Positions 17,791 to 55,364 of a DNA stretch of 64,000 bases are shown in pieces. Position 1 is the stretch's first letter. Every line of letters begins with the position of its first letter. The DNA lies in IMG/VR virus record IMGVR_UViG_3300029319_000019, positions 1 through 64,000 of that record; one strand, written 5' to 3'. The notes beneath the pieces are model-generated. The model saw nothing but the letters and a program-made list of their open reading frames with translations, had not been told where the DNA came from and did not search any database. The stretch is from a virus. The position numbers and the translations under genes are program-made.

Positions 17791-20186
17791 TACAGTTTAG
17801 TTCTAATTTCGTATCCTAGCTTTGCAGCATCATTTACAAATGTAACAAACTCTGGGCTATCTACTCTGTAAGTTACATCTCTACCTTTAGTTGGGTCAAA
17901 CAATGTTACCTTATCTGATGCACCTGAGAATGAGAAAGTAGCTGAACCTGTTTCTTCACCATCTGGTCCGTATATTGCCATGTCTGCACTAGGAGCACCT
18001 GTATGTTTATGTAAGTTCATCTCCATCTGTAGTAGGTATCCAGGAGAGTTAAAGTATTGATCCATTTGTTTGTTTCTAATATTACTATATGGTAATATTA
18101 TTTCCTTACTTACATTTTTATTATTCTTATCCTTACCAACTACTGTTAGTTGTAATGTAGGCTCACCAAATGCTGGAGTAGTATGGAATAATACATTTTT
18201 AACTTGAATCTCTTCACTACTCCATCCTAAATCTTTAACCATTTCAGCTACAGTTCCAATCCCTCTTTGCTGTTTACCGTCCCAATAGATATTAAATGTT
18301 TTATCTAGTGGCGTAGACTTAAAGAATTCTTTTACATACTTAGTGTTTTTTGTAACATCTTGAGGAGTCATGCCTGGCATGTTGTTAGATGCAAAGGTAC
18401 CTTTAGTTAATGTAGAATTTTCCTCTAACCATCTATCTATCTCTTTCTTGTCTGCCTTTCCTGCATCTGTTAAAGCATTTAAAGATCTTAAAACCGCAAA
18501 AGAATCAGACTTATCTCCAAACATATTTTGTACAGCTAAAGCTCTTTTATATCTATTATGATCAGGATGGCTAGGATCTTGTAATATTCTAGGATCAATC
18601 TTAGTAGAAGTTCTAAAAGGATTAACTGTTTCAAAGAAAGATTCTTCTCCATATATGTCACCTATATCATCTCTGATATTAATAAGATCTATTAGAGTTA
18701 GGCTAGGATCGTTAAGAACTTGTCTAGCTCTATCTAATAATTCCTGACCTGTGTACTTTCCAAATTCTTGATTAAGTTTAGACTCATCAGTTATGCCAGT
18801 TGCTTCGTAAGCTCTCCTCAATCTCTCCTGTTGTATAACGACTTGTTTTTTAATAGTCATTACTTTATATCTCATTTCTTGGAATACAGCATTATCTTTT
18901 AACTCTTCAGGTACGTTATTAGATATAATATCCTGCTCAGTAAGTTTTCTACCATCAGTTAAAAATGGAGCAGCTAAAGAGTTAACATCTTGTACAGTTT
19001 TAGTTACTGTATTAAGGTTTAAATCAATATTAGCTCCAATCTCTGCAGACGTTCTACCACCTATATCATCAAGCTGATTAACTTCTGTAAGTTTAAGTAC
19101 ATTTGGAGTGCTATTTTCTAGTTCAAAATTATAATCAGCTGTCCATTTTGCTGAATATTCAACAGCGCTGTTCTGATCTACATTCTTAAACACAAACTTG
19201 TCATAAGATGTTTGTAGCTCTCTATTAATGTCTTGTTGTATTACAGAGTTTTTAAGATAAGTTCTACGCTGTGCAGTAAGATCTTCTCCACTGCCTGTAT
19301 CATTTAATAATCTTTCTTGTTCTTTTATTATATTATCAAGTCTTTGTGCTTCTTTATCGTTACCAGAATCAATTGCCTCTTGTCTTTGTTCTATTAGACC
19401 TTTAGAGTCTGGATTGTCTTCATCACCATATAATGTAGTAGATATTCTAGATCGTATCTCTTCATCACTCAAGTGGAATGTTCTTAGTTCTCCTTTTTGT
19501 TGAAATGCTGCTGCAACATCAGGGTCTTGCATTATGTTGTTAAATACACTAGCAACTCTTTCGGGACTAATCTCTTCAACATCAATACCATTAGTAACAT
19601 AGAAGTTACCATCTTTACTGATTACTTTACCTTCGTTACCATACTTTCTTACCGCAACATCTTTCATTTGCTCTGACATCATTGCTTGAATGTCAACATC
19701 GTCAACCACATTAAACCCAGAGAAGAAAGAACTTTGATCTATTGTACCATCTTCATTTTTTTGTAGTCCTGAGTATTCATGTCTAGATCTCTGCAAGGCA
19801 AGAGCTCTTGTTTCAGAGTCTATTCTCTTATCGTCATATAGCTTATTAAGATTCTCTCTATATGCATTGTATGCTTCATAGTTCTTTTTAATAGGCTGAT
19901 ATTGCTGATCAAAGACTCTAGCACTTTTAGCTACATCCATCATCATAGTTTCATAATCACCACGGCCCGCCCTGTCCATTAGTTGTTGTCTAGTACTTTG
20001 CTCTAACTGATTCTTAAGATCTTGGTCGCCTGCAAAATCTGCAGCTTGCATTTGATCTACAGCTCCTGCTAATGCATCATCAGCATTGAATGCTTGTTGA
20101 AACCTTTGTCTTTGTAGCGCATTTATCTGTACAGATCCTGGATCTCTATAAACACTTTGGTAGGGTTTTAAACTATATCTACTCAT
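17790..20186 (-). CDS. Putative internal virion (cargo) protein
   Basis: 798 aa, Cys-free, helical, coupled to both neighbours by 1-nt overlaps within the cargo block. Confidence 0.65.
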   Translation of the reverse strand: MSRYSLKPYQSVYRDPGSVQINALQRQRFQQAFNADDALAGAVDQMQAADFAGDQDLKNQLEQSTRQQLMDRAGRGDYETMMMDVAKSARVFDQQYQPIKKNYEAYNAYRENLNKLYDDKRIDSETRALALQRSRHEYSGLQKNEDGTIDQSSFFSGFNVVDDVDIQAMMSEQMKDVAVRKYGNEGKVISKDGNFYVTNGIDVEEISPERVASVFNNIMQDPDVAAAFQQKGELRTFHLSDEEIRSRISTTLYGDEDNPDSKGLIEQRQEAIDSGNDKEAQRLDNIIKEQERLLNDTGSGEDLTAQRRTYLKNSVIQQDINRELQTSYDKFVFKNVDQNSAVEYSAKWTADYNFELENSTPNVLKLTEVNQLDDIGGRTSAEIGANIDLNLNTVTKTVQDVNSLAAPFLTDGRKLTEQDIISNNVPEELKDNAVFQEMRYKVMTIKKQVVIQQERLRRAYEATGITDESKLNQEFGKYTGQELLDRARQVLNDPSLTLIDLINIRDDIGDIYGEESFFETVNPFRTSTKIDPRILQDPSHPDHNRYKRALAVQNMFGDKSDSFAVLRSLNALTDAGKADKKEIDRWLEENSTLTKGTFASNNMPGMTPQDVTKNTKYVKEFFKSTPLDKTFNIYWDGKQQRGIGTVAEMVKDLGWSSEEIQVKNVLFHTTPAFGEPTLQLTVVGKDKNNKNVSKEIILPYSNIRNKQMDQYFNSPGYLLQMEMNLHKHTGAPSADMAIYGPDGEETGSATFSFSGASDKVTLFDPTKGRDVTYRVDSPEFVTFVNDAAKLGYEIRTKL

Positions 20187-23100
20187 TATTTATCTTCTTT
20201 TTTATCGTCCTCTTTGGTAGCAGTTGGCTTCGCAAAACGCTTGTTAAATAGCTCAGCTATGTCAGCATTTGTATATGGTTGACCTGTTCTAGGATTAATT
20301 TGATTTCTTAAGAAGTTTCTTAATCTATCTCTTTCATAGATTCCCATATCACCAGTAGCTCTTGCTAGTCTCTCACTCGCTTGATAAGACATTGCATCAC
20401 CTGCTAATCCTGCAATACCTTGCGCAAATGTATCAACTGCACCTAATCTTCTATTAGACTGTGCAATACGTTCAGCTTCTCTTGCTGCAGTATTAATTTG
20501 ATTTACACGTAAAGCATTTTGTATATTCTGCGTTCTTGCTTGCATTTGCATTTGAGCTTCTCTATTTGCAATCTGAGTATTTATTCTAGACTCTTGTGCA
20601 GCAATCTTCATATCACCTTCTTGTTTACGTCTGTATGCAGACATCTTAGCAATGATACCAGCTGGTCCAATACCACTAGTTTCAATAAATCTATTTATCG
20701 CTCTATTGTCTGCTGCATTAGCTGCACGCTCTGCATTGAAGTTAACTCTATCTAGTGCAGGAGCTTTTATTCTACCAGGCGCACCCATTTGTTCTACCGG
20801 CTTGTCTTTCTTAAAGAAGGAATATGCTGCTGGTAATAACTGTGTTACCCCTGCAGCTATTGCTAAACCTGGTACATTTCTATTAAGTCTTTTAAGAGCT
20901 TTCTGTTCTTGCTCTGTTAATTCAACATTACTCTTTGCTTTATCTATTAAAGCTTGATCCTCTTCTGAAAGCTGCTCATTAATTTGATTTTGTAAATTTA
21001 ATGCACTCTGCACACCTTGATTTGGATCTACGTTTATTTCTACTAAGTCATCAAAAGGATTAGGTACTACATTCTCTGAAAGTGTATATTTATTAGGATC
21101 TATACCAGGATAAAATAGCTCTTGTCCCTCTTCTTGTCCCTCTTTCTCTTTCTTTTCTTCTTTTTTAACTTTTTTCTCTTCTTCTTTACTAGCTGGAGGA
21201 ACAGCACCGCTAGGCCCTAATAAATTTAGTTCCTCACTCATTTTATCTATACCGCTTATTGGGTTATATAAATTTATTCCCTGACTAAAGTCATCTATAC
21301 CATCCATATTAAGATCTGACATTATAACATTTCCTAGTGGGTCTACACCCCCTAACTGATAGTAACCACCCGCACCTAACTTAACAACGTTAGGATTTCT
21401 ACCTGCTTTCTTTTCTTGTAGCTTAGCTAGTGCATCAATATCTTTTTGACGTCCACCATTCTTTAGTATATCTTTATGTCTTTGTGCAAATGACTTACCT
21501 CCCATCTTTAAATGTTGTGAGAAGAAGTAATCTCCTACACCACCTTTCTTCATGGTTACTTTATCCATAGTCTCTCCACCCTCTACCTCTGTCATAGGAT
21601 CTAGCATTATGCCTCCTTGCTCATGACTTCTACCTTTAAACTCTACAGCATCACTACCTGGTATAGGTTTCATTTTACCTCCTGGTAGTTTTACACCACC
21701 TCTTTGATATACTTTATTAAAATACTTATCCATACTTGTAGGATCTCCTGCAGCTCCTGTGCCGTATAGTGCTGGCATGTCACTAGCATCTTGCATAGGG
21801 TTAACTAAAGATACTGTTTTTAAAAGTGGTGCTGCTGAGGCCGCTCCAACTCTTAAAAGTTTAGAACCCATAAGTAAACCTTTTTTTGCAGCTTTTTTAA
21901 GACCCATCTTTTCTACAACATTGCTAACACCTGATACTATATTATCAACTGCGCTAGGTTTTATTTGTTTTATAATTCTTTGACTAGGAGGCATTGGTAT
22001 GTTAGGTCTAGGCATATTTTGCAATACTCCAGGAGCCCCGCCTGTTTGATAATACCCACCATATCTAGCAACATCCTTACCAAAGTCAAATCCAGAATAC
22101 TCTCTAGCTTTTAAACTTTCCATTTTCTGTCTTTGTAATACTTTTGCAATTTCCCCTCTTTTCTTTCTTTCGGCTTTTGCCATCTCTTTCCTAGCCTTAC
22201 CTCTTTTTACAAGACCTCCAATTCCTGACACCCCTGCTCCTATAATACCACCAATCAACGCAGTAACAGGTGCAGCAGGTCCGCCAATCATACCTCCTAT
22301 ACCTGCCCCTGTTCCTAGACCTTGAAGTAATGAACCAGTTGTTTCTCCTACATTCATTGTTGTAGCATCATCATCGTCTGCTAATTTTTTAACACCCATA
22401 CCTGCTAAGGATGCAACCAGAGCTGGATTTAACATTGATGCTGCAGTAGATGTGCCACCTGTAATAGAACCTGTTAAAAACTCTCCTGCTTTTGCAGCTC
22501 CAGTTCCAGCAGTTGCAGATCCTAAATTAGCTATAGATTGTTTTGCTCCGGCAGCTACCTTAGACAAACCAGTGCTTAGTTTACTGCCCCCAGATACACC
22601 CATTACCTCAAATCCCGCTGGTACTTCTGCTCCAGGTAGTATAGACAGTTCTGCTCCTGTTGCAGGATTTACAGCAAATTGCACACCCTTTGGTGCTGAT
22701 GCTAGCCCCATTGATTCTGAAACTCCTTTACCATATAAGTCTGCACCTGTTTTAATTAGTGAAGGATCAGCAGTACTAGCTACCCCAACTGGCATAAAGT
22801 TACCAGCCTCATCTTTTATTTTTTCTCCTGTTTTAGGATCTACTTTAAACTTTTTACTTTTATCTGCTAAATCTAAAACTTGTTCACCTATACCTTGAAC
22901 AGTTTGCATTCGTGCTTCTTGCTTAGCTATTTCTTGCTGAGCTTCATCTTGATATTTAGTAGATTCTTGTGCTGCTTTTAAATCTTCTTCTATAGCTTTT
23001 AGTTTAGCAGGATCTGCTTCCTGATATGTAATGGAAGATGTTTCCGGTACACCTGGTAATGTATTAGCGCCATACATAGGGGCTTGTTGTAATCCACCTG

Positions 23101-23350
23101 CTTGGTAGTAACCCATACGTCTCATGAATTCTTTATTACTACTTTTAGGGTAACCGCCTTCTTGCATAGTATCAGCTAGTTTACCAATCTTTTTAGATTG
23201 TGCTGCATGTAGCTTAGATGCCTTAGCTAACTGCTTAGATACTTTACTAAGAGTTTTTGACTTTCCACCTTTTAACATTCTCTTAGGCTTCTTGCCAGCT
23301 TTCTTCATTGATATTGCTATTGCTGCTTGTTGCGCTCTTGATTTTGCCAT
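20186..23350 (-). CDS. Putative cargo/ejection protein with glycine-zipper membrane segment and repeated xxGG motifs
   Basis: 1054 aa directly after the muzzle gene; GLGTGAGIGGMIGG...LIGGIIGAGVSGIGG segment; GRSHEQGGI...EVEGGET module; many YQxGG-like motifs. Confidence 0.7.
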   Translation of the reverse strand: MAKSRAQQAAIAISMKKAGKKPKRMLKGGKSKTLSKVSKQLAKASKLHAAQSKKIGKLADTMQEGGYPKSSNKEFMRRMGYYQAGGLQQAPMYGANTLPGVPETSSITYQEADPAKLKAIEEDLKAAQESTKYQDEAQQEIAKQEARMQTVQGIGEQVLDLADKSKKFKVDPKTGEKIKDEAGNFMPVGVASTADPSLIKTGADLYGKGVSESMGLASAPKGVQFAVNPATGAELSILPGAEVPAGFEVMGVSGGSKLSTGLSKVAAGAKQSIANLGSATAGTGAAKAGEFLTGSITGGTSTAASMLNPALVASLAGMGVKKLADDDDATTMNVGETTGSLLQGLGTGAGIGGMIGGPAAPVTALIGGIIGAGVSGIGGLVKRGKARKEMAKAERKKRGEIAKVLQRQKMESLKAREYSGFDFGKDVARYGGYYQTGGAPGVLQNMPRPNIPMPPSQRIIKQIKPSAVDNIVSGVSNVVEKMGLKKAAKKGLLMGSKLLRVGAASAAPLLKTVSLVNPMQDASDMPALYGTGAAGDPTSMDKYFNKVYQRGGVKLPGGKMKPIPGSDAVEFKGRSHEQGGIMLDPMTEVEGGETMDKVTMKKGGVGDYFFSQHLKMGGKSFAQRHKDILKNGGRQKDIDALAKLQEKKAGRNPNVVKLGAGGYYQLGGVDPLGNVIMSDLNMDGIDDFSQGINLYNPISGIDKMSEELNLLGPSGAVPPASKEEEKKVKKEEKKEKEGQEEGQELFYPGIDPNKYTLSENVVPNPFDDLVEINVDPNQGVQSALNLQNQINEQLSEEDQALIDKAKSNVELTEQEQKALKRLNRNVPGLAIAAGVTQLLPAAYSFFKKDKPVEQMGAPGRIKAPALDRVNFNAERAANAADNRAINRFIETSGIGPAGIIAKMSAYRRKQEGDMKIAAQESRINTQIANREAQMQMQARTQNIQNALRVNQINTAAREAERIAQSNRRLGAVDTFAQGIAGLAGDAMSYQASERLARATGDMGIYERDRLRNFLRNQINPRTGQPYTNADIAELFNKRFAKPTATKEDDKKEDK

Positions 23351-26300: not shown

Positions 26301-28515
26301 CTGGTAAATTACCACTTCCAAAGAAATCAACACTATTGTCTTGATCTATTTCTACTTGACTATCATCACCATCTCCAATTCCTCCAGCCATGTTAACCCC
26401 TGTTACCGTTGACCAAGCACACCCTGATGTTGCAGTTAACGCTACTCCAACCTTATTCCAAACAAACCACCCTTCTTGCCCCATTAAAGCCGATGAAGGT
26501 TCCTGATATATCCATGTTTCAGCATCGCCCCAGTTATCAGTTATAGTATCCATAGCATTACCAAATCCAGGAGCGCCGGCTGTACCATTATTCAAGAGGC
26601 TATCAACGGGTGTATTACTTGTAACACCAATTAGTCCCAAGTTATCATCTGTATTATTCCCTCCGTTTGTATTTTCTGCAGCACCCGTATCCTGAAAGTT
26701 AGGATCACCAACTGCAAAATAATAAGTTTGTGTAAATGATCCATCTGTACCAGTAAACGTTGTAAGATTGTTAGTTATACTAGATTTATATGGGTTAGAG
26801 TTACTAGGCATATGATGATGTCTAACATTTGTACCTCTTAAATCTTCCGCAACCACTTCTGTTACCCCATCAAATACTTTGTAGTCATCTGTGTTGGGAT
26901 AAAATTCATTTTGGTTTTGCCAAAAATTCATACCATTAGAATTAGGTAAACCAGAGTAATCATAAAAATGAAATAACTGTCCTTGTGTCTGAGTCATTTC
27001 AACCAGACCTGGATCAAAACTAAACTGACTAAGAAAGTCTGTTTCTTCGTGATTAATATCATCCCAGTCAAGGCTGTTTGATGGGGTAGTACCTATTCCA
27101 GTAACACCTGAACCGTCTGTATCACCTATTGCTGTTCTACCTGGTATATGATATGCATAGGACATAGTACCATCATTAAGAACAAATGCTATATAAAATG
27201 CATATACTTCATCTCTCGTGTAGCCTTTACGCTGGGTTCTTGAAGCAAAAGGACTTGTACCTCCTACGTCAGATAATGATAAATTATTTACGTCTCTATA
27301 TCCTTGAGTTTTAGTAATATTAGCAGGAGGAGTTGTATTTAAATACCCATACATCATATTGTCTTGAGTCAACTCGTACGCATCAAATGGGTTAAATGTA
27401 TCTACAATACTTACTGATTTAATAAAGTTTGCATGTTTTTGATACCCAATATCTTTAGTCCCAGTTAAATTGCCCACATATAAAACACCATCTAATTGTG
27501 CTAAAGTTTTAGCTGTATCATATGCAACTGTATCTATTATAACTTCTTCTACTGATTTTGACTCATACCCTTCTAAACCAGAGAATGTAATTTTTTTACT
27601 ACCTCCTGTTGTTATATCAACATCGTTTAATTTAAAAGCAAATTCTGCAGGAGCTCCATCTTTATCTACAGATCTAAATACTACTACAGGTCTAAGAAAC
27701 TCATAGTCTTTATTTAAATTTGTAACTCTCCAAGCAATAGATTTACCTGTTTGACTATCAGGTAAACAACCATCATACCTTTCTATAGGACGAACTCCTT
27801 CATCATCTTCAACAATAGGAACTCCTAATGAATATGATACAAAATTAGTTTGTGTAAAGTCTTGATCTACATATGCTAAAAATAAATAGTATGTTCCAGA
27901 TTTAAGTGCACCTCCATTAGATATTGTATTAAAACTTATACGTGGAACTGGCCCTGAATGTGGAAATAAATTCATCCTATCTATATAGTTTTTGTTATTA
28001 GAAGACCCAGGAGAAACCCCATATAGTTCATTAGATAAAGAAGTTTGCTGTCTAGTAACATTTAAACTTCTTGGAGGATTAAAGTTATCAGTAAAATATA
28101 TTATTAAATTACCATTAGGATCAATTTTATATGTTCCTTCTATTGGATAATTTTTACTAAATTTTAAATCTACATCATTTTCTAAACCCGTAATTGAAGA
28201 AGTAGCAGTTTGTCCAGCCGTTGTACTAAAAATAGTAATCATACTTGCATCTTCAGGACCTATAGTGCTATATAAATGTATTGAAGAATCGCCATCTTCA
28301 TTAACTACAAATAGTATAACCTGATCTTCTGTAGTTTCTATAGTTCCAATAACCGTCTGATCAATAGATAAAGATTTATAAAATCTAGTACCAGGCTCAT
28401 TTGATATTGCACCAGCAGTTTCATTTATTAGAATGTTCTTAGCATATCTATACGATCCTTCTGGTTGGTCTACAGGAGCAGCATCTTTATTTAATCCTTT
28501 TATATATTTAGCCAT
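23353..28515 (-). CDS. Tail muzzle / stabilisation protein
   Basis: N-terminal KGLNKD...EGSYRYAKN, C-terminal WTISY...WVSFHDY and KFRDKWIGIRLKY patterns typical of crAss-like muzzle proteins; gene position. Confidence 0.8.
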   Translation of the reverse strand: MAKYIKGLNKDAAPVDQPEGSYRYAKNILINETAGAISNEPGTRFYKSLSIDQTVIGTIETTEDQVILFVVNEDGDSSIHLYSTIGPEDASMITIFSTTAGQTATSSITGLENDVDLKFSKNYPIEGTYKIDPNGNLIIYFTDNFNPPRSLNVTRQQTSLSNELYGVSPGSSNNKNYIDRMNLFPHSGPVPRISFNTISNGGALKSGTYYLFLAYVDQDFTQTNFVSYSLGVPIVEDDEGVRPIERYDGCLPDSQTGKSIAWRVTNLNKDYEFLRPVVVFRSVDKDGAPAEFAFKLNDVDITTGGSKKITFSGLEGYESKSVEEVIIDTVAYDTAKTLAQLDGVLYVGNLTGTKDIGYQKHANFIKSVSIVDTFNPFDAYELTQDNMMYGYLNTTPPANITKTQGYRDVNNLSLSDVGGTSPFASRTQRKGYTRDEVYAFYIAFVLNDGTMSYAYHIPGRTAIGDTDGSGVTGIGTTPSNSLDWDDINHEETDFLSQFSFDPGLVEMTQTQGQLFHFYDYSGLPNSNGMNFWQNQNEFYPNTDDYKVFDGVTEVVAEDLRGTNVRHHHMPSNSNPYKSSITNNLTTFTGTDGSFTQTYYFAVGDPNFQDTGAAENTNGGNNTDDNLGLIGVTSNTPVDSLLNNGTAGAPGFGNAMDTITDNWGDAETWIYQEPSSALMGQEGWFVWNKVGVALTATSGCAWSTVTGVNMAGGIGDGDDSQVEIDQDNSVDFFGSGNLPGQGDLGTWPSQVTYGIFIWQAQVTDTNLAGQIAHEVRPLGVRFKDIKIPVDIADKVQGFRIYYAERKHSNRRILGQDLLKKNISQFDIDLSDCAGDAAIDTLGTIDDGVQTLNASEDFILASGALYNGAINSATFHDFYLLSRKNSLVPGTHTSHEYTVDMLSFGGPFHSYEDVHYNLGENLQGNTPYTAGDGPKCILNSSFKSFHIGTNYQQQSIAPNFRHYPIREKCKTYLRGNSIFDGRSLGFGQRIYNLGGESSIMLGYLANRQPNQGGWSDAGTGAPWHINPEDPVLGDPNNPDQQFYYENPPSPVQLQIHNLHAFKTDMYLSFDTQELIWTGYEVLGEDLQNFILNDDGTEPGAYVEDANGNATEFTVFGETGEVWGGDTYLCRHGYRISHRPEHNLSAPWDHKTLIYTICESTDNINFRHDKDKESAYFPGSPAKRMLDLKADVDLTKEDAMLYSHPYTLGVADIKPPMPYPIREADPEIFKTRVQRSAKADNTSLIDNYRVFLALQFKDLPRNRGDLWKLLSLNNLLYLHTEDSLFRTKGKQSLQMSDGTESFVGSGDIFAQDPDEIIQTKYGYGGTQSQWVSMVTKHGYFTLDYRNRRVFLFKDQLYDIGKQGMESWFQDNIPFTLEKYGVPSDIDNPILGIGFHSEYDERYDRILLTKRDLKPTEDLLELLLAAQLSQLVYPIAQFNSTTNQFEIVNEVFSIGEVGDTGASTLEVTPIDYSDTEYFESTGWTISYDVELNVWVSFHDYIPYIYSRHGESLISFTPGYGNVWVHSSEINRGRFYTENYLTEFEFIYNSGKDSDKIFYSFDYMVDVEDSHNVLANDHGFNSFYVYTTHQISDEQPIEYMINTRQVGNEWKINKFRDLAKLTTSNDTIYTGAFTGSNFGVPGANVAGTITTGVEVTDGQVNANPMFNIDGMTETINNNFIDAGKSWHKQRKFRDKWIGIRLKYDNVTKKLINLYSTNVAAKKFYR

Positions 28516-29471
28516 TAGTAATCTCTATTTAACTCTTCTCTATGATTTAAGTATTCAAAGAAACAAGCATGTGCATTGATGTCTGGTATAAGTCTAACCC
28601 ACTGATTCATGTAAGATTCGTATCTTTCAATGTCAGGATAGTTAGCAGCGTTTCTAGCTTGCGTACAATAGTACTTCCATTTTGAATCTGCAAAGTTATA
28701 GTCTATCCTATTATTAGGTTTATCATAACCACCCAATAACATTTGTTTGTATATATACCAAAACATAGCTTCTTTATAACTTATATCGTCTGGTATCATT
28801 GGAAAGCATTCATCATCAATAGGAAAAGCTGTATAGCTTATACATACTTTACCGCTAGCAAAAGATGTTTTTATGTAATCACAATCTATTATATAGCTTT
28901 CGTTATTTGTAGCATGTTCGTTAATACAATCATCGCAATGCATAGAGCTATGGAAAGTGCTAGCTCCATAACGTAATGGTTCTAAGCCAGCACCTCCACC
29001 TTTAGCATTAAAATATATCCCCTCTAAAACGGTTATCCTACTAATTAGCTCTCTAAGCTCTGCTACATTTGCTTTGTATTGTGTATCATATGTGTTTAAA
29101 TCTGCATTAGTAATGTTAGCTCCATTGTTAGCTACATCATTTTCTAAAGTCTCATTATATTGTGCTATGTCAGCTCTAAGTTTTCTAACTTGCTCTGTAA
29201 GAACATCAAGCTCATCACTTGAAGAAGTACCAACAGTTCCATTAACTGCTACTTGATTTATAAAATATAAGTCTCCAGGTAAACATGCTTTATGATCTTC
29301 TATTGTAAGCACGCATTGTTTTTGACACAGTTGTGAAGCTGCCCCAATGTGCTCTAAAGCTTCTCCTATCCATTCTACTGCATCATCTACCCAGTCTGCA
29401 TGATTAGGTCTTAGATCACGCATAACCTTACGGATAATCATTTTACTTGATATGTTCTTATATACTGCCAT
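28515..29471 (-). CDS. Tail ring (tubular) protein
   Basis: EWIGEALEHIG, YIKTSF.SG.V.ISY.AFP.D...PMIPD and W..YC.QAR motifs; immediately upstream of muzzle. Confidence 0.75.
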   Translation of the reverse strand: MAVYKNISSKMIIRKVMRDLRPNHADWVDDAVEWIGEALEHIGAASQLCQKQCVLTIEDHKACLPGDLYFINQVAVNGTVGTSSSDELDVLTEQVRKLRADIAQYNETLENDVANNGANITNADLNTYDTQYKANVAELRELISRITVLEGIYFNAKGGGAGLEPLRYGASTFHSSMHCDDCINEHATNNESYIIDCDYIKTSFASGKVCISYTAFPIDDECFPMIPDDISYKEAMFWYIYKQMLLGGYDKPNNRIDYNFADSKWKYYCTQARNAANYPDIERYESYMNQWVRLIPDINAHACFFEYLNHREELNRDY

Positions 29472-29473: not shown

Positions 29474-29743
29474 TTATCTCCAGTTACTACAGCTACCACA
29501 ATTCCATGCGCGTAGCGATTTATTAATTCTTGAGTTAGGATCTCTTTGTCCTTTAGCTCCTGTACGTTTAGCCTTCATCCCACACATTCTACTGCAGAAA
29601 CTAGAACGTCTTTTGTTACCTTTCTTTTTACTAGGAGCTTTTAAGTTACCCCCTGTTGCTCTATTATAAGATCGTCTACCTGCAGCGTTTAGTCCACCGC
29701 TAGGATTCTTGCCTGCTTTTCTTTGCCATGCTGGTGTTGCCAT
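29474..29743 (-). CDS. Small basic protein (DUF6321-like)
   Basis: KNPSGGLNAAGR, RRSSFCSRM and DPNSRINKSLRAWNC motifs recalled from aquatic phage small proteins. Confidence 0.7.
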   Translation of the reverse strand: MATPAWQRKAGKNPSGGLNAAGRRSYNRATGGNLKAPSKKKGNKRRSSFCSRMCGMKAKRTGAKGQRDPNSRINKSLRAWNCGSCSNWR

Positions 29744-29745
29744 AT

Positions 29746-30036
29746 TTATATTCTTGCTGGTCCAGGTAGTATAAATCCACCACCCTTCGCACGTTTAACT
29801 TTCTTTTTTCTTTTGTACCTACTAACTCTTCCTTTAGTATTCTTTTCTCTCTGAGCTCTAGCCTTCTCTGATGCAGATAGTTCAGACCACGTAGATGGTG
29901 TATCCTTAGATATACGTCTAGTAGGTCTAAATGTGTTCTCACCTCCACTGTAGTCTTTCTTACCACTAGGTGTTCTCCATTTTTCTTTAAACCAACGCTT
30001 TAGTCTAGCGCCTGCAGCAGTCTTTCTTACAGCCAT
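29746..30036 (-). CDS. Small basic protein (DUF5872-like)
   Basis: LKRWFKEKWRT and RPTRRISKDTPST..ELS motifs; Lys/Arg-rich. Confidence 0.65.
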   Translation of the reverse strand: MAVRKTAAGARLKRWFKEKWRTPSGKKDYSGGENTFRPTRRISKDTPSTWSELSASEKARAQREKNTKGRVSRYKRKKKVKRAKGGGFILPGPARI

Positions 30037-30236
30037 TACTTCTTCTTTAATTTGCGACCACTGCCATATATGTCTGACATCAGACTGGTAGCTAGTCCAC
30101 CTTTTTCTTTTTTACTTTTATTTCCCCAGTTAGCAGCTCCAACCTTACGACACTTAGCCATCGCACCACTTCTGTATGCAGATGTCTTAGGACCGTATCG
30201 AGCTACAACTTTATGATAACACGCGTCTTTTGGCAT
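30036..30236 (-). CDS. Small basic protein
   Basis: KDACYHKV..RY...SAY.SGA..KCRKVGAANWGN; tightly packed in the operon. Confidence 0.65.
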   Translation of the reverse strand: MPKDACYHKVVARYGPKTSAYRSGAMAKCRKVGAANWGNKSKKEKGGLATSLMSDIYGSGRKLKKK

Positions 30237-30238: not shown

Positions 30239-30703
30239 CTAATTCTTTTTAAATTTTAAATAATCTAGTTCATCTAACTCCTTCAGTTTACCTTTGTTAC
30301 CCTTCACTCCTCGTGTAGCATCAAATCTGTAAACTGTTTTGTTCTTTACTTTGCACTTACCTTTACGCCAGTAGTATTTAAGATACTCACTGTCTGTATA
30401 GTATATGTGCCATTTGACACCGTCTCCAGTGTCCTTGTTGTAAAGCTCACTACCATTTTCTAATAGCTCAGCTTTATACTTGTTTGATTCGCCCCAGTCT
30501 ATACCAGGGTTTCTAGGATCTCTCTCCATTCTTACGACGGAAAGAGTTGATAGGTTATACCCCATGTTAAACTCTTTACCGTCTAGAATGTAATCTATAA
30601 TCATCATGTTAAACTCACTGCATATATCCACAAAAGTTTGCTTTGATATATTGCTGTCAGTCTCTACATAATCATTGTATATATGAGAGATGGTGTGTTG
30701 CAC
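30239..30703 (-). CDS. Conserved crAss-like protein, possibly IHF/HU-related
   Basis: Helix followed by IIDYILDGKEFNMGYNLSTLSVVR resembles the HU helix-strand arrangement; position near the ring and muzzle genes. Confidence 0.5.
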   Translation of the reverse strand: MQHTISHIYNDYVETDSNISKQTFVDICSEFNMMIIDYILDGKEFNMGYNLSTLSVVRMERDPRNPGIDWGESNKYKAELLENGSELYNKDTGDGVKWHIYYTDSEYLKYYWRKGKCKVKNKTVYRFDATRGVKGNKGKLKELDELDYLKFKKN

Positions 30704-31152
30704 TAGTCTCTATCTAAGTCAAATACACCTGGCTCGATGAATCCACCCATTTGGTACATCATCTTTTTACCGCCCATTCCCATCTTTTTCTTTCCACCCA
30801 TCATTTTCTTCTCTCCACCTTTCTTCATCATCGTTTTAGCCATAGCTGGGCCTTTCTTGCTTATCTTTTTGATAGCTTTGACAATTTTTCTTTTCCTTTT
30901 CTTTTTCGCTCTTTCTTCCTGTCGCATCTCTTTTTTAACGTTCTTCTTCTCATCTTCAGTCAATGGTCTCGCAGTCTTAGGACTACCACCCATCTGCATC
31001 TTACCTTTACCGTCAGCTGCAAAGAAAGGAACCTTCTTACCATCTTTCATGACCATCTTCAGCTTACCGCCGTCCTTCATCATCTTCTTTTTACCACCGT
31101 ACATCATCATCTTTTTCTTAGATCCTCCGTACATCATTTTTTTCTTATTCAT
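30703..31152 (-). CDS. Lys/Met-rich low-complexity basic protein with repeated xxGG motifs
   Basis: KKKMMYGG-type repeats; ATG at 31152 preferred over TTG at 31158. Confidence 0.75.
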   Translation of the reverse strand: MNKKKMMYGGSKKKMMMYGGKKKMMKDGGKLKMVMKDGKKVPFFAADGKGKMQMGGSPKTARPLTEDEKKNVKKEMRQEERAKKKRKRKIVKAIKKISKKGPAMAKTMMKKGGEKKMMGGKKKMGMGGKKMMYQMGGFIEPGVFDLDRD

Positions 31153-31176
31153 TTTCAAAAATATTTATAATTATAA

Positions 31177-31866
31177 TTATCGTTTTGGTGCAGGTCTACC
31201 CTGACCTTGATCCTGTAATGTATCATTAGTAGTATCATTTACTGATGACGATAACATCATAAGCTCTCCACTCATAATACCTTGTGTTATTGTTTGTAAC
31301 ATATCCATTGGTATAGGAAAGTCTGAATCACTATCATAGCAATCAGATCCATCACAATCAAATAGAGCAACATCTTCTGGATCTTCAAATATTCCTCTCA
31401 CATTTATAAATTTCAAACCATCTGCATTGTATACATACAAATAATCTTCAATCATATAAGCTTTCATTTTATTTTTAGTGTACTTATCAAAAGGTAACCA
31501 TTGAACTGTATGTGATTCTACTATAGGTATATTAGCTTTACCATCAATAGCTCCTACATAAGTAACTGCATCCTTAAAATTAAATCTAACTGTTTTTGGT
31601 ATCTTCTTAACTGTTCTATATACAGCACACTCTGTTGGTAAATTGCAACATTTAGATGCATCTACCTTTATTAATTCTAAACATCCTAAATCTTGTTCTA
31701 GGTGTCTAGTAATCATACCGTTTCTAGCAAAGTCCCTACGTATGAGCATAGCTCTGTAGTACTTTACATTAAATTTAATTTGACTAGTAGATATATGATC
31801 ATTATTGCTAGATCTACCTCCTCTAACTAAATTTAAAATATTGTATGAAATTTCATTTAATGTCAT
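31177..31866 (-). CDS. Putative tail ring / structural protein
   Basis: MTLNEISYNI..., YLYVYN, INVRGIFEDPED and FPIP..M patterns of crAss-like ring proteins. Confidence 0.65.
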   Translation of the reverse strand: MTLNEISYNILNLVRGGRSSNNDHISTSQIKFNVKYYRAMLIRRDFARNGMITRHLEQDLGCLELIKVDASKCCNLPTECAVYRTVKKIPKTVRFNFKDAVTYVGAIDGKANIPIVESHTVQWLPFDKYTKNKMKAYMIEDYLYVYNADGLKFINVRGIFEDPEDVALFDCDGSDCYDSDSDFPIPMDMLQTITQGIMSGELMMLSSSVNDTTNDTLQDQGQGRPAPKR

Positions 31867-34817: not shown

Positions 34818-35284
34818 TAATCAAAATCAATATATTCTATTGTTACTTCTTCTCCATTAGCTATTGCCTTTGCAATAGACGGATAAATCCTTTTATAAGC
34901 GTTAACGCTTTTACCAACAAACCCGTCAGGTAGTAGTTGGTTATTTTCCTGTGCATCGCCAACGATAAGACACCCAGCAGTGTGCTCGTCAGTGTTTCCA
35001 GTATGAATAAGAATATACTCAAAGTTAGGAACATCAGTGACATGCAACATACCACGGTGTATACCAGGATATTTTTTAGTATATCTTTCATGAAATCCAC
35101 CTTCTTTTCTTAATTCTATTTTATATGTGCCTGCAGGTACTCTAGTTTCACCTCTAACTTTTAAAGCTCTACGCTCGTCTTCAAGTGTGTAACAGAGAAA
35201 TTTATTACCCATATCACCCTCTTCAAATAATAAACCTGAAGTTGAGTCTGCTTCTGAGCTAAATCTTAATACTTTTAGTTTCAT
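34817..35284 (-). CDS. DUF5675-family protein, putative L,D-transpeptidase-fold endolysin
   Basis: CYTLED, ETRVPAGTY and ILIHTGNT..HTAGCLIVG (His/Cys) motifs. Confidence 0.8.
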   Translation of the reverse strand: MKLKVLRFSSEADSTSGLLFEEGDMGNKFLCYTLEDERRALKVRGETRVPAGTYKIELRKEGGFHERYTKKYPGIHRGMLHVTDVPNFEYILIHTGNTDEHTAGCLIVGDAQENNQLLPDGFVGKSVNAYKRIYPSIAKAIANGEEVTIEYIDFD

Positions 35285-51470: not shown

Positions 51471-52919
51471 TTATGAAGCAGTACACGTAATGTCTAAAGA
51501 CGTATCAAATCTACGTAAGCAGATACCTGCAGTCTTTAACATGTGTACGCTCGCACCGTCAACATCTGACGCTCTAGTATCAGTAGCCGCGAATCCTCGT
51601 GGAACTACAGAACCAGCAACGCACCAACGCATCATCTCACGACCTTTCTTAGAGATCATTGTAAGGTTAGCTTGTCCGTCATAGTTAGACTGGTCAACAA
51701 ATACCATACGGTAAGACTCTAATGAGTAACCAGTAACTGGGTGCTTTTCACGAGCTTGTGCAACAGGACCATGATCAAATAATGGAATCTTAACCACATT
51801 GATCACATGACCATCTACGTGCTCGTAAGTAGTGAAGTAACCAGTTAATCCTAAGTTACGTCCGCTACCTGTGATGAATCTGTTCTCACCACCTACTTTG
51901 AAAGTATTAGATGCGAAGTGATTTTTAAGAGCTTCATCAAACTCTCTTGCTCCACCAGTACCAGTAAATAATGTTACTTGCTTCTGGTTTGCATCCGTCA
52001 TTTGGTAGAATAAATCACCAATGATGTTCTTCAACTTAGTTTCAGTCATAGTTGAATAAGTATCAGTGTTTACGATTTGCTCGAATAAACCTGGGCCTAC
52101 AATTACAGGCTGTCCATTCTCATCCTTCATAAACGTGTTACCGTTTGAATCATAAGTTTTTTGTCCATACCAGTAGTACATCTCACACTCTTCTTTAAAG
52201 TCAAGCATGTGGTTGTACTCTTCATAGTCCATCCAAAGGTTAGTAGTACCACCACCTTTAGTTGGTAAAGTAAAGTTCGCTACGTAATCTTTAGCATGTC
52301 CTGACATGTGGTAAGATTTACGAACTGTAGTAATTTTGTTACGAACTTTTCCTGGAGCTTGCCAGTTAGAAGCGTTACCTCTTGAGAAGTCAACTCCTAC
52401 TGGTGCATACAATTGAGCCCAAAGATCACCTGCAGTAAAACCTGAAGTTAATACTGTAGCTGCTGCTGGGTTTACTAATTGTAATGTATACTCCCATCCT
52501 GAACCTGCCGCATAAGGTGTAGGTTCTTTCATGATACGAGCTAGTTCACCTTTGTTGTTTACTAACACGTATGGAAATACGAATCGTTTGTCAGGGAAAA
52601 CCAATGTAAAAGTTGATCCTCCTTGTCCTAAGTTTGCTCCTGCATTAGTCACAGCCACTGGACGCGTTCTCAATTTGTGAGTAGCCACACGATATTCGTA
52701 CTCTAAACGGTCAATTGATTGAACGTTTCCAGCTCCTTCAGTTAAGAAAGATAGTGGAAAACGCTTATCATCTTTGCCCGCTAGGTGCGTAATAATCGGA
52801 GATAGTTCAGTTGGCTTAGACAGTAATGCATTAGCTAGACTGTTCATGTCTGTCATTTGCGAATCATTATAAAACGTCTTGTGTACGCTAATGTTCGTTC
52901 CGGTCATTTGTCCTGCCAT
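51471..52919 (-). CDS. Major capsid protein
   Basis: 482 aa; TD.N.L, RNKITTVRKSY..SG, GPGLFEQI, LFTGTGG..EF and HP.TG..LESY motifs of crAss-like MCPs; between scaffold and ring genes. Confidence 0.9.
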   Translation of the reverse strand: MAGQMTGTNISVHKTFYNDSQMTDMNSLANALLSKPTELSPIITHLAGKDDKRFPLSFLTEGAGNVQSIDRLEYEYRVATHKLRTRPVAVTNAGANLGQGGSTFTLVFPDKRFVFPYVLVNNKGELARIMKEPTPYAAGSGWEYTLQLVNPAAATVLTSGFTAGDLWAQLYAPVGVDFSRGNASNWQAPGKVRNKITTVRKSYHMSGHAKDYVANFTLPTKGGGTTNLWMDYEEYNHMLDFKEECEMYYWYGQKTYDSNGNTFMKDENGQPVIVGPGLFEQIVNTDTYSTMTETKLKNIIGDLFYQMTDANQKQVTLFTGTGGAREFDEALKNHFASNTFKVGGENRFITGSGRNLGLTGYFTTYEHVDGHVINVVKIPLFDHGPVAQAREKHPVTGYSLESYRMVFVDQSNYDGQANLTMISKKGREMMRWCVAGSVVPRGFAATDTRASDVDGASVHMLKTAGICLRRFDTSLDITCTAS

Positions 52920-52965
52920 TATTATCTAATTTATAAAGTTAAGTTTTGCATTTTAAAATTGCCAT

Positions 52966-54093
52966 TTATATGTTAAGATCTAAATCATCCAAGTCTACTT
53001 GTTTACTCTTACGTCTTTGACGTCCTCGTGCACTTTTAACTCTTTCTTCATTTCTGGATATTCTATCTCTTAATGATTTAGCATTTGATGTTCTAGCTTT
53101 TGTTTCTACCAATTTTGATAAATCAAAACCTTTGAACATTAAATAATCAATCGCGAGTTTAGTCTCCATCTCTGCTTCAGAATGATCTAAGTCTCGTTGT
53201 GTGCGACCATCGTTAGTCACAGGGTTTGAGATATAATCAAAAAACTTTGACTTCTCTCTCTTTGGAATAGAGATACCTGCAAAATCATCAGTACTATCGA
53301 TGGCTTCATACACACCATTCCAAAATTCTTCTTGCTGTTCTTCTTGTTGAGCTCTTTGTTGTTTTTGCTGTTCAACCAATTGACTTCTTGATTGTTCTTG
53401 CATCTTACCTAAAGCTACTCTAGCAGATTCAGCTTTCTGGTATAATTTACCAGTATCTTCATAATCAGTCAGTAGCTCATTTATAAAATTCTGATCGTGT
53501 CCTTTTGTTGCAAAGTAATCAGATAAAATAGCTTTTTGACTTCTTATGTCATCTTCTTCAAAACTAACTTGGTTATAATCTAGTTGCGGATCATATGCCT
53601 GCATAAAATCTCTAGATTCCCCTCCGTTAAGAACGTATTCTAGATGTTTTTGTACTAGTGGAAAGTTCTCAAACAAATTATTTAGTTGATCTTCCGCTAT
53701 CTGTTGTCCAACATCTTGTGTCATTGCTAAAAGACCTTCTTCAGTATCATCATACTCTTCTTCAGTCTCAAAGCCTAGTTTATCTAGTATTGAAGAAACT
53801 ACTGTAGAAGTAACAGCTTCTCTGTCATCTTCTTCTTCATCGTCATCTTCATACTCTTCGTCTTCTTCGTAGTCCTCATCCTCTTCATATTCTTCCTCTT
53901 CTTCTTCTTCAACTTCTTCTACGTCTTCAGACTCTTCTAATTCTTCTGCATCCGCATCTAACTCTTCAGCTTCTGCGCTTGGGGTTTCAACTGCTAAATC
54001 TTCAGCAACTTCACCTCCTGGATTTCCTCCATCTAAAACATCGTCAAATGAAATATCATCCAAACCGATGCCTTCTTCTTCTGGTTCTATCAT
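52966..54093 (-). CDS. Putative capsid scaffolding protein
   Basis: Very acidic N-terminal tract, coiled coil, basic C-terminus; immediately upstream of MCP. Confidence 0.7.
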   Translation of the reverse strand: MIEPEEEGIGLDDISFDDVLDGGNPGGEVAEDLAVETPSAEAEELDADAEELEESEDVEEVEEEEEEEYEEDEDYEEDEEYEDDDEEEDDREAVTSTVVSSILDKLGFETEEEYDDTEEGLLAMTQDVGQQIAEDQLNNLFENFPLVQKHLEYVLNGGESRDFMQAYDPQLDYNQVSFEEDDIRSQKAILSDYFATKGHDQNFINELLTDYEDTGKLYQKAESARVALGKMQEQSRSQLVEQQKQQRAQQEEQQEEFWNGVYEAIDSTDDFAGISIPKREKSKFFDYISNPVTNDGRTQRDLDHSEAEMETKLAIDYLMFKGFDLSKLVETKARTSNAKSLRDRISRNEERVKSARGRQRRKSKQVDLDDLDLNI

Positions 54094-54114
54094 AATCTAT
54101 ATATTAATTTTTTA

Positions 54115-54122
54115 CAAAAATA
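54115..54122 (-). promoter_or_regulatory. Bacteroidota sigma-A -7 element upstream of scaffold/MCP
   Basis: TATTTTTG matches TAnnTTTG, intergenic, about 20 nt upstream of the ATG. Confidence 0.65.
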
Positions 54123-54185
54123 GTTAAATATGTGTGTATTGGTACACTCACATATGTTTTTGGATATGTCTTTATTATATATCAC

Positions 54186-55364
54186 TTATGCTCTTTTTCT
54201 AGACCTTCTAATAGCCTCTTTACCTTTAGTAAATATACTTGCCACCTGTCTTTTACCCATTACTTTGGCTCTTTGTTCGCCTACCGTAAGGATTTGGATC
54301 TTCCTAGCAAACGGTTTATTAACTCTTTTAACCTTAGCCACAGTAGCGCGAGCGTCAGCAGGTGTGGCAAAACGTATACCAACAGTATCCTTTGGATTTT
54401 CATCCGTATATAATCTTCTACCACTTCCTTTTGGTTTTTTACCTGTTCCTGTTACTGGATCTTTACCATGCTTAGATCTATAGCCACCTTTTTTATATAT
54501 TTTACTAGAGTATTTATCTATACTAATAGGATCACCCGCTGCACCAGTACCATATAAAGCTGGCATATCGCTAGCATCTCTAGATATGTCTACTGGTAAT
54601 ATTGTAGTAAAACCTGATTTTGCAGTTTTTGCTAAAGGTTTTACAACTTTGTAAATATCTTTACCAAATTTCTTACCTTCCCTTATCAACTCATCTACTT
54701 TTGCTTTTTCTTTTCTATAAAATATCTTTAAAGCTTTTTTAGCAACCTTATCACCTTTGGCTGCATCTTTAACTGCTTTAACCATTCCTTTATAATATTT
54801 TGGCTTTTCAACTACCCTTTTTAGATAATCAACTAAGTTTTGTCCAGCAGTTCCTTCAAAAGGTCTAGTCTTCTTCATACTAGTATATAATGGTTCTCCA
54901 GCCCCTGCTGCAGAACTTATAACTTCAAGCTTGTCTTTAAAACCTCCTTTTTGATAGGCTGGTGTCTCTATAACTGTACCACTCTTTGGTCCTGTAGGTA
55001 AATCTTTGATGCCTGGTGGTACATTCTGATACGATTGTACTAAATGTCCTTGGTCATCCACCTTTGTAATATTGATAGGCACTCTCATACCTTCAGTATT
55101 GAATGATGTATTAGCTGGTACATCTGGAAAAACCATGCTAGCACCTATGTTACCCATGGCTTGCTGTTCACGTAAACCTACTTGTTGTTCTTGTGGAGTT
55201 TGTGCAACTAGCATATTCTCTTGCTTAGCCTGTGCCTCTGCTTGTAACATTGCTGGTACATTAGCGCCCTGGTTAGCCATTTGATACAAGTCTAATATGC
55301 TACCTTCAAATCCAGTAGACCTAGCCATGTCTAATATTTCTCTACGCATTTGGTTATTCAGCAT
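54186..55364 (-). CDS. Basic modular protein with YxKGG motifs, probably virion-internal
   Basis: 392 aa, Cys-free, between portal and scaffold; shares a 32-aa cassette with the 1054-aa cargo protein. Confidence 0.7.
   Translation of the reverse strand: MLNNQMRREILDMARSTGFEGSILDLYQMANQGANVPAMLQAEAQAKQENMLVAQTPQEQQVGLREQQAMGNIGASMVFPDVPANTSFNTEGMRVPINITKVDDQGHLVQSYQNVPPGIKDLPTGPKSGTVIETPAYQKGGFKDKLEVISSAAGAGEPLYTSMKKTRPFEGTAGQNLVDYLKRVVEKPKYYKGMVKAVKDAAKGDKVAKKALKIFYRKEKAKVDELIREGKKFGKDIYKVVKPLAKTAKSGFTTILPVDISRDASDMPALYGTGAAGDPISIDKYSSKIYKKGGYRSKHGKDPVTGTGKKPKGSGRRLYTDENPKDTVGIRFATPADARATVAKVKRVNKPFARKIQILTVGEQRAKVMGKRQVASIFTKGKEAIRRSRKRA

What the first reader, a model, noticed from the sequence alone, without database searches (positions are those of the whole stretch)
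20186..55364. A (Y/M)xxGG motif punctuates several basic proteins: candidate cassette polyprotein or head-loading signal system
Seen: the 1054-aa protein carries MLKGG, MQEGG, YQAGG, YQTGG, YQRGG, MKKGG and YQLGG. The 392-aa protein (54186-55364) has YQKGG and YKKGG. The Lys/Met protein (30703-31152) has MMYGG twice, MKDGG, MQMGG, MKKGG and YQMGG. The 96-aa and 66-aa proteins have RAKGG and KEKGG near their ends, and the 1936-aa protein has YKNGG and FAKGG. The motifs separate compositionally distinct, mostly Lys-rich blocks. Some blocks (MAKSRAQQAAIAISMKKAG; SKQLAKASKLHAAQSK; KDPVTGTGKKPKGSGRRLYTDENP) resemble short stand-alone proteins I recall from aquatic phages (unverified). Inference: xxGG is a protease cleavage site or a capsid-interior docking tag that lets small basic modules be shuffled into polyproteins and loaded into the head.
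Basis: partly seen in the sequence, partly recalled or inferred. Interest (0 to 1): 0.8.

Follow-up and report, generated by a model that had tools for sequence, protein, structure and literature searches.

The report
Gly-Gly seams in crassvirus cargo proteins
Three very basic proteins that this uncultured marine crAss-like phage probably packs into its particle are strings of swappable modules joined by a short conserved (Tyr/Phe/Met)-x-x-Gly-Gly peptide; I found no published description of it, and nothing yet shows that the joints are cut.

Summary
YQxGG occurs 6 times in 47 late proteins against 0.19 expected. All six lie in three proteins:
- the 1054-aa homologue of cargo protein C1 (crAss001 gp45);
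- a 392-aa protein encoded just after the portal gene;
- a 151-aa Lys/Met-rich protein.

The motif marks real module borders. Homology breakpoints in hundreds of relatives fall on it. In 22 of 77 related phages the C1 gene is split there. In 55% of C1 relatives a short basic N-terminal leader ends in it. Small basic proteins carry it before a shared C-terminal tail (FLEP..P.LDDL). Gut crassviruses, crAss001 gp45 included, have an aromatic-x-x-GG version at homologous joints.

Some listed instances are not seams. YKNGG and FAKGG in the 1936-aa protein are chance. MKKGG600 lies inside a folded portal-binding domain.

Cleavage is not shown:
- Pfam finds no protease in the 80-kb genome.
- DUF192 is not the motif's obligatory partner.
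- The homologous joint in the solved crAss001 structure is modelled as continuous chain.

I favour an uncut hinge and docking handle (0.45) over a protease site (0.33). Earlier notes of this scan report the same seam in at least 27 other genomes. I found no published description.

The parts
20186..23350 (-). 1054-aa cargo protein C1 homologue (net charge +32), directly after the muzzle gene. It has six seams: MLKGG25, MQEGG62, YQAGG82, YQTGG434, YQRGG548 and YQLGG664.
   Evidence: Gene order is R2 ... R1, muzzle, this gene, C2, giant proteins.
23264..23350 (-). Leader cassette, residues 1-29, ending in MLKGG. In other proteins it is followed by different modules immediately after GG.
   Evidence: P0274 skips the next block, and P0276-P0278 carry a different module.
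23093..23263 (-). Two short cassettes, residues 30-66 (ending MQEGG) and 67-86 (ending YQAGG).
   Evidence: in P0273 the first cassette is followed by a LysM domain right after MQKGG.
22037..23092 (-). Block of residues 87-438 with a Gly-zipper hydrophobic segment (about 340-385), ending in YQTGG. In relatives with a split gene, the first gene corresponds to this part.
   Evidence: crAss001 gp45 has a like segment at 134-160.
21695..22036 (-). Block of residues 439-552. It has a Lys-rich stretch plus a 32-aa cassette shared with the 392-aa protein, and ends in YQRGG.
   Evidence: Relatives with a split C1 gene lack this block.
21347..21694 (-). Portal-binding domain (residues 553-663) plus its C-terminal seam YQLGG664-668.
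   Evidence: AlphaFold2 model, core pLDDT above 90. Best structural match is 7qog_M, crAss001 gp45 425-548: Z 8.5, rmsd 3.3, 86 residues aligned, next hit Z 4.0. Both flanking motifs are conserved in 131 representative homologues.
20189..21346 (-). C-terminal part, residues 669-1054, with a widely conserved domain at about 820-1040.
54186..55364 (-). 392-aa post-portal carrier protein (net charge +33). Layout: N-domain 1-136 (three helices plus a DUF192 barrel), YQKGG137, middle block, YKKGG290, then a 98-aa C-terminal module.
   Evidence: Pfam DUF192, 29.7 bits against a cut-off of 27. Fold matches 3m7a and 3pjy. 1463 homologues with variable C-terminal halves. It lies directly downstream of the portal gene in 12 of 12 relatives.
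54942..54956 (-). YQKGG seam after the N-domain. The GG is invariant in 71 aligned homologues.
   Evidence: BLAST matches end at residues 141-147. pLDDT drops below 50 from residue 140.
54483..54497 (-). YKKGG seam before the 98-aa C-terminal module (54189-54482).
   Evidence: BLAST matches start at residues 290-302. The nearest Atlas clusters are stand-alone viral proteins of 90-96 aa; this is a lead only.
30703..31158 (-). Lys/Met-rich protein (net charge +35) made of tandem K-K-K-M-x-x-G-G units. It ends YQMGG plus the tail FIEPGVFDLDRD.
   Evidence: Relatives in the same slot are strings of mini-modules with the same seams and tail.
29474..30236 (-). Three small basic proteins: 89 aa (DUF6321), 96 aa (DUF5872, RAKGG plus tail) and 66 aa (KEKGG plus tail).
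   Evidence: Pfam and PHROGs. Relatives have fused forms with GG joints.
52966..54093 (-). 375-aa very acidic protein (net charge -73) between the carrier gene and the MCP gene. It is scaffold-like and a possible electrostatic partner of the basic cargo (inference).
   Evidence: Atlas gives only weak leads to scaffolding families, 0.82-0.83.
55354..57609 (-). Portal protein.
   Evidence: Pfam P22_portal, weak. 22 of 22 relatives have it.

Best explanation
The (Y/F/M)-x-x-G-G peptide is a conserved seam of the virion-internal cargo proteins of crAss-like phages.

In this phage it does three things:
- It ends short basic N-terminal leaders.
- It separates exchangeable modules.
- It precedes short C-terminal tails.

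It does this in the three most basic late proteins (C1 cargo, post-portal carrier, Lys/Met protein) and, in weaker form, in the small basic proteins between the ring genes.

Shown here: the motif is non-random, under protein-level selection, confined to these proteins, and coincides with module borders and with gene fission points.

Inferred: the seam works as an exposed hinge plus a short handle, made of an aromatic or Met anchor, a GG turn, and flanking Lys. The handle would let any module be spliced into a cargo chain and still be taken into the particle. The chain stays uncut at least at the portal-binding domain. The basic leaders and spacers may bind the very acidic scaffold-like protein during assembly and DNA afterwards.
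For: Enrichment and specificity:
- In 77 related loci Y[QK]xGG is 68 observed against 4.3 expected in C1, and 41 against 1.3 in the small unlabelled ORFs. It is at or below expectation in muzzle, C2 and RNAP1 homologues.
- Codons at the motifs differ synonymously.

Borders:
- Homology breakpoints fall at residues 141-147 and 290-302 of the 392-aa protein.
- In C1 they fall at 434, 546-549 and 665-672.
- Leader cassette swaps occur exactly after GG.
- C1 is split at the seams in 22 of 77 loci.

Not a mere linker:
- 55% of 145 C1 representatives start with a basic leader ending in the motif. None of the muzzle, C2, RNAP1, R1, IHF or R2 homologues does.

For an uncut handle:
- The N-flank motif is homologous to NAFGG424-428 of crAss001 gp45. 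The solved chain is modelled from residue 425 onward (PMC10172136).
- The motif is kept right before the domain even when the leader is 3 residues long.
- One carrier protein ends exactly in FRYGG.
- The context is quasi-palindromic, K-[YF]-x-x-G-G-[FVMYL]-[KR], and Pro after GG is not depleted: 34 of 553 sites, 1.3 times background.

Charge:
- The motif proteins are +32 to +35 and the scaffold-like protein is -73.
Against: - No binding partner of the motif is shown.
- Tandem arrays of 9-10-residue K/M units, cleavable-looking leaders and cleavable-looking tails fit a processing site at least as well.
- The crAss001 joint is one site in one distant phage, and only its AFGG part is ordered.
- Packaging of the 392-aa and Lys/Met proteins into the virion is inferred from gene position, charge and shared cassettes. 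It has not been observed.
Confidence: 0.45

Rival explanations
1. The seams are cleavage sites of a protease, phage-encoded but unrecognised or host-encoded. On this reading the cargo proteins are true polyproteins. Leaders and tails are trimmed, and modules and small basic peptides are released inside the capsid or after ejection.

This would work like:
- T4 internal proteins cut by gp21;
- phiKZ or SPN3US head proteins cut at S/A/G-x-E;
- adenovirus core proteins cut at (M/I/L)xGG.
For: - The form of the motif: a hydrophobic residue followed by two Gly, as in adenain, ULP/DUB and C39 sites (general knowledge).
- Leaders of 8-30 basic residues end in the motif.
- Short basic tails, often with Cys, or FLEP-type tails follow GG.
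- There are tandem 9-10-residue units.
- The C-flank and carrier seams lie in low-confidence linkers next to folded domains.
- Frequent fission and fusion at the seams would be neutral if the products are cut anyway.
- Precedent for a host enzyme: P22 gp7 leader removal by OpdA (my knowledge, not checked here).
- Some relatives carry HExxH modules in the same proteins.
Against: - No protease family was found by Pfam in any ORF of the 80-kb genome.
- No HExxH occurs in its late proteins.
- The crAss001 joint is continuous in the solved model.
- Pro is tolerated after GG.
- The motif occurs at an extreme C-terminus.
- No proteolysis is reported for Crassvirales in PMC10172136 or PMC10136315.
Confidence: 0.33
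2. The motif has no function of its own. It would be a by-product of descent and recombination: cassettes spread together with their conserved ends, or short junction homology favours illegitimate recombination.
For: - Cassettes are clearly mobile between proteins.
- The same modules are joined without the motif in other phage groups, for example the 427-aa structural protein of cyanomyovirus RB11-B.
Against: - Codons at the motif vary synonymously within this genome.
- The motif is kept at N-terminal leaders of stand-alone genes, where no joint is needed.
- It is conserved at the flanks of the portal-binding domain from marine to gut crassviruses, at under 30% identity.
Confidence: 0.1
3. The DUF192 domain of the post-portal protein is the GG-specific protease. 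It would cut itself free at YQKGG and then process the other seams.
For: - The motif invariably follows the domain; the GG is invariant in 71 sequences.
- The gene sits in the usual prohead-protease slot between portal and scaffold/MCP.
Against: - DUF192 is absent from 5 gut crassviruses whose C1 carries aromatic-x-x-GG.
- The profile of this carrier's N-terminal domain found no match in 6 of 19 near-complete marine relatives. Several of these were seen to carry the motif in C1.
- The barrel is degenerate in some relatives that still keep the motif.
- The fold matches only 3m7a and 3pjy, of unknown function, and no protease.
Confidence: 0.03

Closest known systems
Cargo protein C1 (gp45) of Bacteroides phage crAss001 (Bayfield et al. 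2023, PMC10172136; PDB 7QOG)
   Same: - Same gene position after the muzzle gene.
- Gly-zipper hydrophobic segment.
- Same portal-binding domain fold (Z 8.5).
- N-terminal basic leader ending in FDTGG.
- Aromatic-GG peptides bracket both ordered segments: SAYGG206 and FAEGG260 around the 214-245 helix, NAFGG424 and FAYGG559 around 425-552.
   Different: - Under 30% identity.
- The Pfam crAss_CARG1 model does not match the window protein.
- The marine form of the motif is Y-Q/K-x-G-G and much more regular.
- The paper does not describe the motif or a modular build.
Polyvalent proteins and MuF-type packaged effector carriers (Iyer et al. 2017, PMC5512222)
   Same: - A conserved head-associated N-terminal part, encoded next to the portal gene.
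- It is fused to very variable effector-like C-terminal modules. Relatives carry SLT, glucosaminidase and HExxH modules.
- The proteins are presumably delivered with the DNA.
   Different: - No MuF domain and no MPTase in this genome.
- The modules here are often tiny basic peptides.
- A defined junction peptide is not a described feature of polyvalent proteins.
Capsid-targeting leaders and multi-site processing of phage head proteins (T4 IPs with gp21; phiKZ or SPN3US prohead protease, PMC10052503)
   Same: Short N-terminal leaders and a recurring short motif in proteins stored in the head.
   Different: - Those motifs end in Glu and are cut by an identified, essential phage protease that also cuts capsid or scaffold proteins.
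- Here no protease is known.
- MCP, portal and the scaffold-like protein lack the motif.
Adenovirus protease sites (M/I/L)xGG|x in basic core proteins pVII, pX/mu and pVI (general knowledge, not checked here)
   Same: - A hydrophobic residue followed by GG.
- Very basic, DNA-associated substrates.
- Short basic Cys-containing C-terminal tails after the site in some relatives.
   Different: - Spacing differs: the hydrophobic residue is three residues before GG here, against two in adenovirus.
- No clan CE protease was found.
- There is no evidence of cutting.

Membership tests
Crassvirales cargo protein C1 (crAss001 gp45) | Gene directly downstream of the muzzle gene and upstream of C2 and the giant RNAP-block genes. 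| tested here: met
   R1 and R2 by Pfam. Weak muzzle C-terminal match, E = 0.0013. The order is conserved in 77 loci.
Crassvirales cargo protein C1 (crAss001 gp45) | Portal-binding domain with the fold of gp45 residues 425-552. | tested here: met
   7qog_M: Z 8.5, rmsd 3.3, 86 residues, 28% identity; next hit Z 4.0.
Crassvirales cargo protein C1 (crAss001 gp45) | Match to the Pfam crAss_CARG1 model (PF25725). | tested here: not met
   No hit at E <= 0.01 or E <= 10 in six frames. The model does hit phi14:2 g070.
Crassvirales cargo protein C1 (crAss001 gp45) | Presence in the virion. | not testable with these tools
   The phage is uncultured.
DUF192 (PF02643) | Profile match above the gathering score, and the same fold. 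| tested here: met
   29.7 bits against a cut-off of 27, residues 52-136. Foldseek 3m7a E = 4e-4 and 3pjy, probability 1.0.
Protease-processed head or internal proteins (T4, phiKZ, adenovirus type) | A maturation protease encoded by the virus. | tested here: not met
   Pfam over all ORFs of the genome finds none. No HExxH in late proteins. A novel fold or a host enzyme is not excluded.
Protease-processed head or internal proteins (T4, phiKZ, adenovirus type) | A recurring consensus at leader ends and between mature parts. | tested here: met
Protease-processed head or internal proteins (T4, phiKZ, adenovirus type) | Observed cleavage at the consensus. | not testable with these tools
   The only related structural datum, the crAss001 joint at 424-428, shows continuous chain.
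Polyvalent or MuF-type packaged effector carriers | A conserved head-associated domain fused to variable effector domains, encoded by the packaging module. | tested here: met
   Head association itself is inferred.
Polyvalent or MuF-type packaged effector carriers | A MuF domain or an embedded MPTase. | tested here: not met

The most novel reading that the evidence does not exclude
The GG seams are cut by a so far unidentified Gly-Gly-specific protease of phage or host. Crassvirus cargo genes would then be true polyproteins that release enzymes, a portal-bound piece and many small Lys/Met-rich DNA-binding peptides inside the particle. That would be an adenovirus-like maturation chemistry in a tailed phage, and a new protease family to find.
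Probability: 0.3. Interest if true: 0.85.

Novelty: new variant of a known kind. Interest (0 to 1): 0.6.

Why it matters
Crassvirales are among the most abundant phages of the gut and are common in the sea. How they load and eject their protein cargo is open; PMC10136315 states that the assembly mechanisms are not established.

A defined seam peptide helps in three ways:
- It gives a simple rule for parsing the otherwise unannotatable cargo proteins into modules.
- It predicts exact sites to test by N-terminomics in cultured phages. In crAss001 gp45 these are GG at residues 21, 210, 264, 333, 428 and 563.
- It suggests where foreign modules might be inserted and still be delivered.

The finding also exposes a large family of post-portal carrier proteins (1463 homologues found) with hypervariable effector-like ends.

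Tried and rejected
Hypotheses rejected:
- DUF192 as the seam protease: rejected on phyletic pattern and fold.
- A nucleotide-level recombination signal: codons at the motifs vary synonymously.

Searches that found nothing:
- Pfam and PHROGs on the whole 1054-aa and 392-aa proteins and on single blocks gave nothing except DUF192 and weak PHROG hits.
- PDB sequence search found no relatives.
- The search for related loci with the whole C1 protein found none in IMG/VR. The domain alignment found 77 loci.
- tblastn of the portal-binding domain and of the DUF192 N-domain against 50,697 phage records gave no match.
- Literature searches found no description of the motif or of proteolysis in Crassvirales.

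Jobs without an answer:
- Complex prediction of portal with the carrier N-domain returned no verdict, score 0.00. This is not evidence either way.

Other:
- Both Atlas look-ups gave only leads.
Full report
**Context**

The window is the late, minus-strand module of an 80.3-kb uncultured crAss-like phage.
- Pfam names ring proteins R1 (28515-29471) and R2 (31177-31866).
- The MCP (51471-52919) is about 31% identical to crassvirus MCPs.
- The 1720-aa gene has a weak muzzle C-terminal match.

The order is portal, 392-aa gene, acidic 375-aa gene, MCP ... R2, Lys/Met protein, IHF-like, three small basic proteins, R1, muzzle, 1054-aa, 798-aa, three giant proteins. This mirrors crAss001, where gp45 (C1) and gp46 (C2) follow the muzzle gene and are virion cargo (PMC10172136).

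Yes. All listed peptides are present.
- YQxGG occurs 6 times in 47 proteins against 0.19 expected. [YM]xxGG occurs 26 times against 7.6.
- Given a GG, the residue four before it is Y or M at 16 of 30 sites in the three core proteins. The expectation is 2.75, P = 1e-9.
- In the other 44 proteins the figure is 10 of 103 against 6.05 expected.
- The rest of the genome has none.
- Codons at the motifs differ synonymously, so selection acts on the protein.

Not every listed instance is a seam.
- The 1936-aa protein's YKNGG and FAKGG are chance. Its 65 homologues show 0 against 2.3 expected.
- MKKGG600 lies inside a folded domain.

**The seams are module borders**

1. The 392-aa protein has 1463 database homologues that share different parts of it.
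   - BLAST matches end at residues 141-147, just after YQKGG137-141. They start at 290-302, at YKKGG290-294.
   - The same module follows YQDGG in two different contexts, P0003 and P0009.
2. In 150 representative homologues of the 1054-aa protein, matches break at 434, 546-549 and 665-672.
   - The 120-residue domain between YQRGG548 and YQLGG664 is present in 131 of them.
   - It is flanked on both sides by [YF][QK]xGG.
3. The 29-residue leader cassette is followed, exactly after M-x-K-G-G, by different modules in different small proteins, including a LysM domain.
4. In 22 of 77 related IMG/VR loci the C1 gene is two genes.
   - The break is at residues 432-438 and 546-549 of the window protein.
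   - The second gene begins with a short basic leader that again ends in the motif.
5. 55% of 145 C1 representatives start with such a leader. None of the muzzle, C2, RNAP1, R1, IHF or R2 homologues does.
6. The small basic proteins of the R2-R1 interval are strings of mini-modules in relatives.
   - These include EF-hand-like, DUF6321 and DUF5872 modules, and the 66-aa module.
   - In 20 loci they end in a shared tail, YxxGG-FLEP..P.LDDL. The window's Lys/Met protein has it too.
7. Across the 77 loci the motif is enriched only in C1 (68 against 4.3) and in these small ORFs (41 against 1.3).

**Structures**

An AlphaFold2 model of residues 536-680 has a core pLDDT above 90.
- Its C-terminal flank is at low confidence.
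- Its N-terminal flank, with the YQRGG seam, is at intermediate confidence (pLDDT about 50-70).
- Its best structural match is the portal-bound domain of crAss001 gp45 (7qog_M: Z 8.5, rmsd 3.3, 86 residues; next hit Z 4.0). So the domain between two seams is the portal anchor of C1.

The N-domain of the 392-aa protein folds as three helices plus a DUF192 barrel.
- It becomes disordered from the GG onward.
- It matches only the DUF192 structures 3m7a and 3pjy, of unknown function.

**Range**

Gut crassviruses have aromatic-x-x-GG or aromatic-GG at N-terminal leaders and module edges. The ones checked were crAss001, DAC15, IAS virus, p-crAssphage and crAss002.
- This includes both flanks of the portal-binding domain.
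- It also includes both ends of a cassette that recurs in a marine carrier protein.
- phi14:2 g070 carries the domain with LATGG and QYVGG flanks.

Outside Crassvirales the same modules are joined without the motif. An example is a cyanomyovirus structural protein. The seam is therefore a lineage feature, not a property of the modules.

**Mechanism**

A plain linker is excluded, because stand-alone genes keep the leader plus the motif.

For a cleavage site:
- the look of the motif;
- the leaders, tails and tandem 9-10-residue units;
- the ease of gene fission and fusion at the seams.

Against a cleavage site:
- Pfam finds no protease in any ORF of the genome.
- No HExxH occurs in the late proteins.
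- Pro after GG is not avoided.
- One carrier ends exactly in the motif.
- In crAss001 the homologous joint NAFGG424-428 lies within the chain modelled from residue 425. At least that joint is therefore uncut in the virion.

DUF192 is not the motif's obligatory partner.
- It is absent from five gut crassviruses.
- The carrier N-domain profile found no match in 6 of 19 near-complete marine relatives.
- The motif persists where the barrel has decayed.

The motif proteins are the most basic of the phage, at +32 to +35. The scaffold-like 375-aa protein is -73. This suggests electrostatic co-assembly; that is inference.

I therefore rank the readings as follows:
- uncut hinge and docking handle: 0.45;
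- protease site: 0.33;
- by-product of cassette mobility: 0.10.

**Comparison and novelty**

The protein is a C1 cargo homologue by position and fold, though not by the Pfam model.

The carrier protein works like MuF-type or polyvalent packaged effector carriers (PMC5512222) but lacks their defining domains.

I found no paper describing the seam. Earlier notes of this scan report the same seam in at least 27 other crAss-like genomes, with the same open question. Those notes are not independent evidence.

Noticed in passing
52966-54093 (-): A 375-aa protein with net charge -73 and a poly-Glu/Asp/Tyr tract at residues about 25-90. It is conserved between the post-portal gene and the MCP gene in relatives. 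It is probably the scaffolding protein, homologous in position to crAss001 gp31.
   Followed up: partly
L086:1501-3669, L093:1501-3486; L129:10360-12141 (phi14:2 g070): Post-portal carrier proteins of two relatives, and the C1-like protein g070 of Cellulophaga phage phi14:2, carry HExxH motifs in modules that Pfam does not name. These may be zincin-like peptidases. The window's own late proteins have no HExxH.
   Followed up: partly
L001-L077 (22 loci, e.g. L009:7594-12070): The C1 cargo gene is split into two adjacent genes in 22 of 77 related phages. The first gene ends in a conserved tail, (F/M/Y)GG....MPRYGY.
   Followed up: yes
29474-29743 (-): The DUF6321 protein is 84% identical to Pelagibacter phage HTVC035P gp29 and has homologues in 517 phage records, mostly cyanophages. 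In a T7-like Prochlorococcus phage the gene lies between the MCP and tail tube genes. This is a very widely shared small basic module of marine phages.
   Followed up: partly
28515-29471 (-): Ring protein R1 has an MLLGG at residue 244. R1 homologues show [YFM]xxGG 21 times against 2.2 expected. This is probably a conserved site of the folded protein and unrelated to the seams.
   Followed up: no
61751-62026 (-), 60397-60612 (-), 34817-35284 (-): A GroES-like Cpn10 gene, an HU-like DNA-binding protein and a DUF5675 protein lie among the late and early genes.
   Followed up: no
21695-21790 and 54483-54578 (-): A 32-residue cassette is shared by C1 and the post-portal carrier. In both it follows a Lys-rich stretch and ends in YxxGG. 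It may be a common docking element for two different cargo proteins.
   Followed up: partly
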